A stretch of DNA of 64,000 nucleotides from Negativicutes bacterium (lineage in GTDB: Bacteria > Bacillota > Negativicutes > UBA1444). Under the pieces are notes generated by a model. The model saw only the letters and a list, made by a program, of their open reading frames with translations. It searched no databases and was not told where the DNA came from. Of the stretch, positions 61,181-61,462 are shown one piece after another (position 1 is the first letter of the stretch; every line of letters starts with the position of its first letter). The translations under genes and the position numbers were made by a program. The stretch is taken from the NCBI GenBank assembly GCA_963665275.2, contig CAXXIN010000018.1:18300-82299 (forward strand). The letters run 5' to 3'.

Positions 61181-61417
61181 GTGCGCACCTCCCTTTGGGA
61201 CAGATAACCTCCAGCAGCTGCGGCACACAACCTCGTGAGACATGCGAAGTACCAGTCGTACCGGCCAACATCCAGCTCATTCGTGATGGACCGCAGGGCC
61301 AGAGGGATCACTCTCAATTTCGAGGTTCAACCTCAAGGAGGAAGACGATCTCCTCTGTCCTCTGCTATTAGTATCTCCGATTGTTCCTCGGGAGACAAGC
61401 GGAGAGGTTCAACAGGT
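61181..61417 (-). ncRNA. candidate IS110 bridge (guide) RNA region in the 5' non-coding end
   Basis: ~240 nt of non-coding, hairpin-rich sequence lies upstream of the transposase. Examples are GAGG-TTCAA-CCTC, AGGAG...CTCCT and TCTCC...GGGAGA. The 10-mer GAGGTTCAAC occurs twice (61322-61331 and 61404-61413). Confidence 0.35.
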
Positions 61418-61462
61418 TTCCCTGTTTATCCCGAACATAATTATACGAGGAGGATGAATAGT

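What the first reader, a model, noticed from the sequence alone, without database searches (positions are those of the whole stretch)
61181..61445. Structured 5' non-coding end of the IS: bridge-RNA candidate with internal 10-mer repeat and a 9-mer match to the opposite IS end
IS110-group elements are now known to encode, in the long non-coding end upstream of the recombinase, a bispecific bridge RNA. Its loops base-pair with the target DNA and with the element's own ends. Here the long flank (~240 nt, 61181 to about 61417) lies 5' of the transposase, as in the IS110 subgroup. It is dense in short hairpins: GAGG-TTCAA-CCTC at 61322-61334, AGGAG...CTCCT, and TCTCC...GGGAGA. GAGGTTCAAC occurs twice (61322-61331 and 61404-61413). 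The second copy overlaps the 9-mer TCAACAGGT, which is repeated near the other IS end (59980-59988). That match could be a guide-to-donor complementarity or a target repeat; I cannot tell which from sequence alone.
Basis: partly seen in the sequence, partly recalled or inferred. Interest (0 to 1): 0.6.

Follow-up and report, generated by a model that had tools for sequence, protein, structure and literature searches.

The report
Bridge RNA of an IS110 element
The non-coding end of this mobile element most likely encodes a "bridge RNA", the known guide RNA of IS110-family insertion sequences. Its target-reading loop resembles the ribosome's anti-Shine-Dalgarno sequence, which explains why all three copies in this genome sit at the ribosome-binding site of a gene, one of them inside the nitrogenase operon.

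Summary
The genome holds three identical copies.

The 267-nt left end (61181-61447, minus strand) has the anatomy of a bridge RNA: a target-binding loop, a donor-binding loop and a CT core. Joining the element's ends creates a TTGACT-17-TATAAT promoter.

- **Target guides.** CUUCCUCCU and AAAUUGAG match the three insertion sites at 7-9 of 9 and 6-8 of 8 positions.
- **Donor guides.** They match the element's own ends.
- **Relatives.** In 57 relatives (46-56% transposase identity) the helices covary, with 90% of cells paired against 38-50% in slid controls. Guides also covary with each element's own flanks and ends (0 of 20,000 shuffles).

The 9-mer and 10-mer repeats are not the guide matches and are not conserved in relatives.

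The left target guide shares CCUCCUU with the host 16S rRNA 3' end, so the element lands on Shine-Dalgarno sequences, here that of nifI1.

This is a new member of a known kind.

The parts
59965..61447 (-). IS110-family insertion sequence proper. With one CT core it is 1,485 bp. Three identical copies lie in this genome (C18 = this window, C14, C7).
   Evidence: Searches show identical sequence in the three copies. Searches show that the empty nifH-nifI1 spacer in the two closest same-genus genomes (L004, L007) has the length of the inferred empty site.
59963..59964 (-). Core dinucleotide CT (AG on the + strand) at the right-end junction.
   Evidence: The sequence at both junctions shows the direct repeat CTC. 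An invariant AG in the RTG and RDG of all 57 relatives complements CT.
61448..61449 (-). Core dinucleotide CT at the left-end junction. The flank GAGGATG... follows, so the nifI1 Shine-Dalgarno GAGGAGG is rebuilt.
59999..61180 (-). Transposase/recombinase gene, 393 aa, with the DEDD RuvC-like domain and the Tnp domain. Residues D7, E60, D102, D105 and S312 are conserved.
   Evidence: Pfam PF01548 and PF02371. NCBIfam NF033542, 249.8 bits. Alignment to the IS621 structure 8wt6.
59978..59983 (-). -35 box TTGACT in the right end. It is half of the junction promoter that exists only when the ends are joined.
   Evidence: TTGAC(T/A) sits at the same place in the right ends of relatives.
61440..61445 (-). 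-10 box TATAAT at the start of the left end. It lies 17 nt from the -35 box across the joined ends.
   Evidence: Relatives carry CT-NNN-TATAAT at the left-end start.
61375..61425 (-). 5' domain with two hairpins: ACAGG-GAAA-CCUGU (61412-61425) and UCUCCG...CGGAGA (61375-61404). An AUACUAAU linker follows.
   Evidence: MFE fold. By eye, relatives also show a hairpin followed by (G)AUAAU before the loops. This was not tested statistically.
61300..61357 (-). Target-binding loop module. It has a basal stem (61347-61357 with 61300-61309), LTG, apical hairpin and RTG.
   Evidence: RNAalifold and pair counts on 57 sequences.
61336..61344 (-). Left target guide CUUCCUCCU. It has the same sequence as the top strand of the left target plus core, and it shares CCUCCUU with the host 16S rRNA 3' end.
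   Evidence: It matches 9/9 (C14), 8/9 (nif site) and 7/9 (C7) against the flanks. LTG covaries with the flank in relatives. The 16S 3' end is.
61322..61334 (-). Apical hairpin of the target loop, GAGG-UUGAA-CCUC.
   Evidence: Helix 3 has 4 pairs, all with double changes, and 96.5% of cells paired.
61311..61320 (-). Right target guide AAAUUGAG (61313-61320), the reverse complement of core plus right target. The next base, A (61312), is the candidate handshake base for donor position 7 (T).
   Evidence: It matches 8/8 (C7), 7/8 (C14) and 6/8 (nif site). The handshake logic follows PMC11208158.
61218..61296 (-). Donor-binding loop module. It has a basal stem (61283-61296 with 61218-61228), LDG, a variable apical hairpin (61245-61264) and RDG.
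   Evidence: Helices 4 and 5 comprise 9 pairs, all with double changes.
61270..61278 (-). Left donor guide region GAGCUGGAU. AGCUGG equals the right-end bases AGCTGG that lie 1 nt before the core.
   Evidence: LDG and right end are concordant in 40 of 40 relatives (AGCTGG 20, AGCCGG 15, AGTTGG 5).
61230..61237 (-). Right donor guide cACGAG, the reverse complement of CTCGT (core plus left-end start). The next base, G (61231), is the candidate handshake base for target position 7 (C).
   Evidence: Junctions fixed independently from multi-copy genomes confirm ACGAG/CTCGT, AGTAG/CTACT and ACAAG/CTTGT.
61198..61217 (-). 3' strand of a long-range closing helix. It is either CUGUCC (61198-61203) pairing with GGACAG, or CUGCUG (61212-61217) pairing with UAGCAG (61362-61367). 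The helix encloses both loops just before the transposase ribosome-binding site (61186-61193).
   Evidence: Duplex-energy permutation across 57 sequences gave own pairs -10.6 against cross pairs -7.05 kcal/mol, with 0 of 2,000 permutations as low. The helix appears in 42 of 57 MFE folds.

Best explanation
Positions 61181-61447 (minus strand) form the left-end non-coding region of an active IS110-family insertion sequence and encode its bridge RNA (also called seekRNA).

**Proposed cycle (inferred by homology with IS621 and ISEc21).**
1. The element is excised or copied out as a circle.
2. Joining the right and left ends creates a sigma-70 promoter: TTGACT from the right end, a 17-nt spacer containing the CT core, and TATAAT from the left end.
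3. Transcription from about 61433 gives an RNA of about 240 nt. It has a 5' hairpin domain followed by two internal-loop modules enclosed by a long-range helix.

**Target loop.**
[quoted passage not shown] **Donor loop.**
- AGCUGG pairs with the right end.
- ACGAG pairs with the core plus the left-end start.

**Recombination.** The DEDD/Ser recombinase (D7, E60, D102, D105, S312) bound to this RNA recombines the circle junction with a target of the form CTTCCTC-CT-CAATTT at the CT core.

**Consequence of the guide sequence.** The left target guide is anti-Shine-Dalgarno-like. Targets are therefore ribosome-binding sites read on the opposite strand. The element lands just upstream of GGAGG-N7-9-ATG, points away from the gene, and leaves its Shine-Dalgarno sequence intact.

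**Shown here:** the boundaries, the guide-site matches, the covariation of helices and guides, the junction promoter sequence, and the catalytic residues.

**Inferred:** transcription, RNA ends, circle formation and catalysis.
For: - **Protein.** It belongs to the IS110 RNA-guided transposase family. It aligns to IS621 with the catalytic residues kept.
- **Copies and boundaries.** Three copies are 100% identical, and their boundaries put the region inside the IS. The empty nifH-nifI1 site in same-genus genomes supports the boundaries.
- **Guides against this genome's own sites.** LTG matches 9/9, 8/9 and 7/9. RTG matches 8/8, 7/8 and 6/8.
- **Helices.** Across 57 distinct relatives, 23 pairs are 90.1% paired against 38-50% when slid. 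There are 292 double-change cells against 32-73 when slid. No shuffle of 500 reaches the observed values.
- **Guides covary with each element's own flanks.** LTG scores 3.98 of 7 against 2.54 shuffled. RTG scores 3.66 of 6 against 1.73 shuffled. Both give 0 of 20,000.
- **Donor guides.** LDG and the right end agree in 40 of 40 relatives. RDG and the left-end start agree across seven different triplets. Three of these were confirmed with junctions set independently.
- **Core.** An invariant AG in RTG and RDG complements the CT core.
- **Promoter.** The junction carries TTGACT-17-TATAAT, and the integrated copy has no sigma-70-like site. Both fit the published model (PMC11208160; PMC11187229).
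- **Handshake bases.** They fit PMC11208158.
Against:
- Rfam 15 returned no relevant match, so no curated model could be applied.
- The left donor guide does not reach the core. The RNA reads AGCUGG-AU where the DNA reads AGCTGG-TCT. This holds in the whole clade and departs from IS621, whose LDG pairs through the core C.
- The nif site has 3 mismatches to the ideal 15-mer, so that insertion is an imperfect-match event.
- The single-sequence fold z-score is only -2.05.
- For most relatives the left-end junction was located using the RDG complement, so that covariation is partly circular. The exception is the four element groups checked.
Confidence: 0.9

Rival explanations
1. The left end is only a leader and promoter region of the transposase gene. 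Protein-binding sites and translational-control hairpins would explain the structure, with no RNA guide function.
For: The 3' strand of the closing helix lies 5-25 nt from the transposase ribosome-binding site, so the structure could also affect translation. There is no expression evidence.
Against: Loop sequences covary with each element's own insertion flanks and own ends. A leader has no reason to do this. The invariant AG opposite the CT core sits in both loops.
Confidence: 0.04
2. It is a bridge RNA gene that is no longer functional, that is, a decaying element.
For: The LDG lacks pairing next to the core. The integrated copy has no promoter. The region before the loops (GAUACUAAU) departs from the GAUAAU seen by eye in relatives.
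Against: Three copies are identical over 1,493 nt at three unrelated loci, which indicates recent movement. The transposase ORF is intact with all catalytic residues. The LDG feature is shared by the whole clade, including other multi-copy elements.
Confidence: 0.05
3. The 9-mer TCAACAGGT shared by both ends and the internal 10-mer GAGGTTCAAC are functional recognition elements, such as subterminal recombinase sites or extra guide-donor pairing.
For: The 9-mer shared between the right end and the left end is reached in only about 1.5% of shuffles. The 10-mer occurs 3 times in the window against 0.11 expected.
Against: None of 32 relatives with both ends defined has an equivalent repeat at that position. 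The shared motif that recurs there (3 of 32) is the LDG/LD match TAGCTGG. The third 10-mer copy lies in nifI2 coding sequence. Both repeats lie outside the positions that contact DNA in the published model.
Confidence: 0.05

Closest known systems
IS621 bridge RNA and recombinase (E. coli; Durrant et al. 2024, PMC11208160; Hiraizumi et al. 2024, PMC11208158; PDB 8wt6)
   Same: - The RNA is encoded in the left end, 5' of a DEDD/Ser recombinase.
- A target loop is followed by a donor loop, each built as stem, guide, stem-loop, guide, stem.
- The 5' guides copy the top strand and the 3' guides complement it.
- The core is CT.
- Bases after RTG and RDG fit the handshake rule.
- The promoter is split between the right end (-35) and the left end (-10).
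   Different: - The transposases are distant: the alignment scores 90.8 bits in two stretches, and this protein is 393 aa against about 326 aa.
- The RNA would be about 240 nt rather than 177 nt.
- Covariation supports a long-range helix enclosing both loops. From memory, IS621 is described as a 5' stem-loop followed by two separate loop modules; this difference was not checked.
- The LDG pairs with 6 nt and stops 1 nt before the core.
- The RTG is 8 nt rather than 4 nt.
- The target is a Shine-Dalgarno-like sequence rather than a REP-like one. The IS621 target type is from memory.
ISEc21 seekRNA (IS110 type; Siddiquee et al. 2024, PMC11187229)
   Same: The non-coding region lies upstream of the transposase gene. 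The promoter is formed by joining the ends in the circle. [quoted passage not shown] No target duplication occurs beyond the core.
   Different: The target differs (a conserved region within IS3-family transposase genes). No sequence comparison with ISEc21 was made here.
CazIS110-1 of Caloranaerobacter azorensis (bioRxiv 10.1101/2025.10.25.684509)
   Same: It is a Firmicute IS110 element with an experimentally detected bridge RNA, including TBL-only and DBL-only species.
   Different: Its sequence was not compared here, and its target is not described as a ribosome-binding site in the text searched.
IS900/IS901/IS902/IS116 group of IS110-family elements (mycobacteria, Streptomyces); target consensus CATGN4-6*CNCCTT, recalled from memory and not found in the library
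   Same: These are IS110-family elements that insert in one orientation at ribosome-binding sites, with the transposase pointing away from the target gene.
   Different: As recalled, IS900 inserts between the ribosome-binding site and the start codon. This element inserts at the upstream edge of the Shine-Dalgarno sequence and leaves GGAGG and the ATG together. No link between the IS900 target and a guide RNA was examined here.

Membership tests
IS110-family bridge RNA (bRNA/seekRNA) | Encoded in the long non-coding end next to a DEDD (RuvC-like) plus Tnp-domain serine recombinase | tested here: met
   PF01548 (E 6.8e-45) and PF02371 (E 4e-27). NF033542 at 249.8 bits against a cutoff of 140. 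D7, E60, D102, D105 and S312 align with the IS621 catalytic residues. The non-coding end is 267 nt and lies 5' of the gene, inside the IS.
IS110-family bridge RNA (bRNA/seekRNA) | Two internal-loop modules (target-binding and donor-binding), each stem, guide, stem-loop, guide, stem, kept by covariation | tested here: met
   Five helices with 23 pairs, 21 of them with double changes. 90.1% of cells are paired against 38-50% when slid, and 0 of 500 shuffles reach the observed values. The donor-loop apical hairpin is too variable in length to align and was judged by eye only.
IS110-family bridge RNA (bRNA/seekRNA) | LTG equals the top strand of left target plus core; RTG is the reverse complement of core plus right target | tested here: met
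   Own sites match at 9/9, 8/9 and 7/9 for LTG and 8/8, 7/8 and 6/8 for RTG. The permutation test across relatives gave 0 of 20,000 for both.
IS110-family bridge RNA (bRNA/seekRNA) | RDG is the reverse complement of core plus left-end start | tested here: met
   ACGAG pairs with CTCGT here. Seven different triplets are concordant in relatives. Four element groups with junctions set independently from multiple copies confirm three of those triplets.
IS110-family bridge RNA (bRNA/seekRNA) | LDG equals the right-end bases up to and including the core C (8 nt in IS621) | tested here: inconclusive
   AGCYGG/AGTTGG in the RNA matches the right end in 40 of 40 relatives. The next bases (RNA AU, DNA TC of T-CT) do not match in any member. 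Pairing is therefore 6 nt and stops 1 nt short of the core.
IS110-family bridge RNA (bRNA/seekRNA) | Conserved core dinucleotide (CT) at both junctions and opposite both 3' guides | tested here: met
   The direct repeat CTC lies at both junctions. AG is invariant in RTG and RDG across 57 sequences.
IS110-family bridge RNA (bRNA/seekRNA) | Promoter assembled across the right-end/left-end junction of the circular form | tested here: met
   The joined ends give TTGACT, a 17-nt spacer and TATAAT. The same layout occurs in relatives. No sigma-70-like site lies in the integrated copy. This is sequence-level evidence only.
IS110-family bridge RNA (bRNA/seekRNA) | The RNA is made and binds the recombinase; guide changes retarget insertion | not testable with these tools
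No experiments were possible.
IS110-family bridge RNA (bRNA/seekRNA) | Match to a curated covariance model | not testable with these tools
   An Rfam 15 scan of 59000-62500 at E up to 10 gave only chance snoRNA matches. No bridge-RNA match was returned.
IS1111 subgroup | Long non-coding region downstream of the transposase gene and subterminal inverted repeats | tested here: not met
   The downstream end is only 34 nt (59965-59998) and the long end is upstream. The criterion is from PMC11187229. Subterminal inverted repeats were not searched for specifically.

The most novel reading that the evidence does not exclude
A widespread Firmicute clade of IS110 elements has a bridge RNA whose left target guide imitates the 16S rRNA anti-Shine-Dalgarno sequence (CCUCCUU). 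These elements would home to ribosome-binding sites genome-wide. They insert at the upstream edge of the Shine-Dalgarno sequence, pointing away from the gene, and rebuild it. Genes are thereby cut off from their promoters while their translation signals are kept. The clade also differs architecturally from IS621. A long-range helix encloses both loops, and the left donor guide does not reach the core.
Probability: 0.5. Interest if true: 0.5.

Novelty: new member of a known kind. Interest (0 to 1): 0.35.

Why it matters
The finding turns a sequence-only guess into a well-supported annotation. It gives exact boundaries, the four guide segments, the core and the junction promoter of a bridge-RNA element in a nitrogen-fixing anaerobe.

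It explains why the element landed in the nitrogenase operon. The nifI1 ribosome-binding site resembles its target, with 3 mismatches to the ideal 15-mer.

It also yields a 57-member comparative set for a bridge-RNA clade distant from IS621. This clade has a longer right target guide, a closing helix and a shortened donor guide. Such variants are useful for understanding which features of bridge recombinases are essential.

The anti-Shine-Dalgarno-like guide gives a simple RNA-level explanation for ribosome-binding-site targeting by IS110-family elements. This behaviour has long been noted for the IS900 group (from memory).

Tried and rejected
- **Rfam 15 scan** at permissive E-value returned nothing relevant.
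- **Promoter scan** of the integrated copy found no sigma-70-like site. I therefore did not adopt the idea that the conserved GAUAAU before the loops is an internal -10 box. In relatives it follows a conserved hairpin, which fits an RNA motif better. This remains open.
- **A core shifted by two bases** (TC, giving an empty site 2 nt longer) was considered. It would extend the RTG match to 10 nt. I rejected it for three reasons. The two closest uninterrupted relatives have exactly the shorter spacer. The invariant AG positions fit CT. The extra A after RTG fits the handshake base for donor position 7.
- **The 9-mer and 10-mer repeats** were tested as functional elements and found not conserved.
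- **The IS900 target consensus** was searched for in the literature and not retrieved. That comparison rests on memory.
- **No covariance model was built.** The MAFFT alignment already gave clear pair counts.

Full report
**Observation.**
- GAGGTTCAAC lies at 61322-61331 and 61404-61413, plus a third copy at 62072 inside nifI2. That is 3 matches against 0.11 expected.
- TCAACAGGT lies at 59980-59988 and 61409-61417. That is 2 matches against 0.35 expected, and 5 of 100 shuffles reach 2.
- The hairpin GAGG-TTCAA-CCTC lies at 61322-61334.
- The minus-strand fold of 61181-61440 is only modestly more stable than shuffles (-95.7 kcal/mol, z = -2.05). Structure alone would not carry the claim.

**Context and boundaries.** The minus strand of 59999-61180 encodes a 393-aa protein.
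- It carries the two IS110 domains, PF01548 (E 6.8e-45) and PF02371 (E 4e-27).
- It passes the NCBIfam model 'IS110 family RNA-guided transposase' at 249.8 bits against a cutoff of 140.
- It aligns to the IS621 recombinase structure 8wt6 at E 1.1e-24, with the catalytic residues kept as D7, E60, D102, D105 and S312.
- The flanking genes are nifH (59129-59956) and a P-II gene, nifI1 (61463-61789).

The assembly holds three copies that are identical over 1,493 nt, on contigs C18 (this window), C14 and C7. In the transposase orientation the junctions read flank-CCTC|CT|CGTATAAT... and ...GCTGGT|CT|CA-flank. The element proper is therefore 59965-61447, and a CT core is present at both junctions (61448-61449 and 59963-59964).

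Removing the element and one core gives ...TAAGTGAGGAGGATGAATAGTATG. Six genomes of the same genus have an uninterrupted nifH-nifI1 spacer. In the two closest (L004, L007) the spacer has exactly this length and layout: TAA or TAG, 9 nt containing GGAGG, then ATG. The non-coding left end is thus 267 nt (61181-61447), not about 240, and it lies wholly inside the IS.

**Junction promoter.** Joining the right end to the left end with one core gives TTGACT, a 17-nt spacer and TATAAT. The -35 box is at 59978-59983 and the -10 box at 61440-61445. The integrated copy has no sigma-70-like site on either strand (0 found against 1.7 expected). Both points fit the published behaviour of IS621 and ISEc21, where the promoter exists only in the circle (PMC11208160; PMC11187229).

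**Guides in this element.** The rule comes from Durrant et al.. The left guides have the sequence of the top strand up to the core, and the right guides are the reverse complement of core plus right side. Under that rule the RNA contains the following.
- **LTG CUUCCUCCU (61336-61344).** It matches the three sites at 9/9 (C14, CTTCCTCCT), 8/9 (nif, CATCCTCCT) and 7/9 (C7).
- **Apical hairpin (61322-61334).**
- **RTG AAAUUGAG (61313-61320).** It matches at 8/8 (C7, CTCAATTT), 7/8 (C14) and 6/8 (nif).
- **Donor loop.** AGCUGG (61272-61277) equals the right-end bases AGCTGG. ACGAG (61232-61236) is the reverse complement of CTCGT, the core plus left-end start.
- **Handshake bases.** The base after RTG (A) can pair with donor position 7 (T of GGT|CT). 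The base after RDG (G) can pair with target position 7 (C of ..CC|T). Neither pairs canonically with its own DNA at that position (the donor-loop G could wobble with T). This is the handshake arrangement described by Hiraizumi et al..

**Comparative test: helices.** A scan of one genome per species returned 80 loci with transposases 46-56% identical, mostly in Bacillota. Of 81 left ends (the window plus 80 loci), 71 carry AG[CT][CTA]GGAT about 100 nt before the start codon. I aligned 57 distinct sequences (A3).
- RNAalifold recovered the target-loop basal stem, its apical hairpin and the donor-loop basal stem. Of 23 pairs, 21 show double changes.
- Pair counting gave 90.1% of cells paired against 38-50% when partners are slid.
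- It gave 292 double-change cells against 32-73 when slid.
- No shuffle of 500 reached the observed values.

**Comparative test: guides.**
- For 44 distinct LTG-flank pairs, the seven variable positions match at 3.98 on average against 2.54 when flanks are shuffled among elements (0 of 20,000).
- For 38 RTG-flank pairs, the figures are 3.66 of 6 against 1.73 (0 of 20,000).
- The LDG hexamer agrees with the element's own right end in 40 of 40 cases: AGCTGG 20, AGCCGG 15, AGTTGG 5.
- RDG triplets agree with the left-end start in seven different versions. I located most left-end junctions using that complement, so I checked four element groups whose junctions can be set independently by comparing copies in one or closely related genomes: L053-55, L083/84, L093-95 and L045/46. 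The divergence points fall 3-4 nt outside the predicted core. The extra shared bases are conserved target bases.

**Departures from IS621.**
1. A long-range helix joins the strand just 5' of the target loop to the tail 3' of the donor loop.
   - Own 5' and 3' pairs give -10.6 kcal/mol on average against -7.05 for cross-element pairs (0 of 2,000 permutations).
   - 42 of 57 MFE folds contain the helix.
   - In this element either GGACAG/CUGUCC or UAGCAG/CUGCUG could form it. I cannot tell which.
2. The LDG stops one base short of the core. The RNA reads AGCUGG-AU and the DNA reads AGCTGG-TCT in every member. In IS621 the LDG pairs through the core C.
3. The RTG is 8 nt here rather than 4.

**Target.** The LTG shares CCUCCUU with the 3' end of this genome's 16S rRNA...GGATCACCTCCTTTCT.
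- All three copies sit with the left end against GGAGG-N7-9-ATG of a gene on the other strand: nifI1, a gene beginning MLTEYRNEPF, and a gene beginning MFCNQCGQ.
- Among relatives, 17 of 45 distinct insertions have a gene start within about 20 nt of the left end. By my count, 13 of the 18 whose LTG ends in CUCC do so.
- The genome has no intact perfect 15-mer target CTTCCTCCTCAATTT. It has 2 sites with one mismatch (both in the core T), 21 with two and 196 with three.
- The occupied sites differ from the ideal by 1 (C14), 2 (C7) and 3 (nif) positions. The nif insertion is therefore an imperfect-match event.
- The insertion leaves GAGGAGG-N9-ATG of nifI1 intact. It places 1.5 kb, read antisense to the transposase, between nifH and nifI1. 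No outward promoter was predicted.

The 9-mer shared by the two ends is reached in about 1.5% of shuffles. None of 32 relatives with both ends defined has a repeat at the equivalent place. The shared motif that recurs there (3 of 32) is TAGCTGG, the LDG/right-end match. In the left end the 9-mer is part of the hairpin ACAGG-GAAA-CCUGU followed by UGA. In the right end it overlaps the -35 box. I saw no counterpart of the 10-mer in relatives, and it has a third copy in nifI2. I treat both as coincidental or element-specific. They are not guides.

**Limits.**
- No expression data could be obtained.
- Rfam returned no bridge-RNA match.
- Transcription start, RNA ends, circle formation and catalysis are inferred from homology with IS621, ISEc21 and CazIS110-1.
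- The comparison with IS900-type ribosome-binding-site targeting rests on memory, because the consensus could not be retrieved.

**Verdict.** This is a genuine, apparently recently active bridge-RNA element. It is a new member of a known kind, with a Shine-Dalgarno-directed target guide and some clade-specific architecture.

Noticed in passing
window 59957-61462: The IS separates nifH from nifI1-nifI2-nifD in what is an uninterrupted operon in six same-genus genomes. The nifI1 Shine-Dalgarno sequence is rebuilt, but no outward promoter is predicted, so the insertion may be polar on nifI1I2DK.
   Followed up: partly
window 61235-61789 (+): An open frame starting at GTG 61235 inside the IS left end runs without a stop, in frame, into nifI1 (184 aa in all). 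It is probably chance, but it could give an N-terminally extended NifI1 if translated.
   Followed up: no
L059-L062 (Christensenellales MAG JAXGZL01): The four copies of the related IS share identical sequence well beyond the predicted ends: about 469 nt upstream of the start codon and about 315 nt downstream of the stop. The IS110 unit there is embedded in, or has grown into, a larger repeated element.
   Followed up: no
L045 (Butyricicoccus MAG), right-end junction: Directly after the right end and core (..ATAGCCGGTCT) comes CGTATAATAAGA, which looks like the left-end start of a different IS110 relative. One element seems to have inserted at the end of another, or the two form a head-to-tail pair.
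   Followed up: no
relatives L041-L120, just 5' of the closing helix; window 61364-61372: Most relatives have a hairpin followed by (G)AUAAU, often TGnGATAAT, 7-12 nt before the loops. This could be an internal extended -10 promoter for the integrated copy or a conserved RNA motif. Here it reads GAUACUAAU.
   Followed up: partly
window 62072-62081: A third exact copy of GAGGTTCAAC lies inside nifI2 coding sequence.
   Followed up: yes
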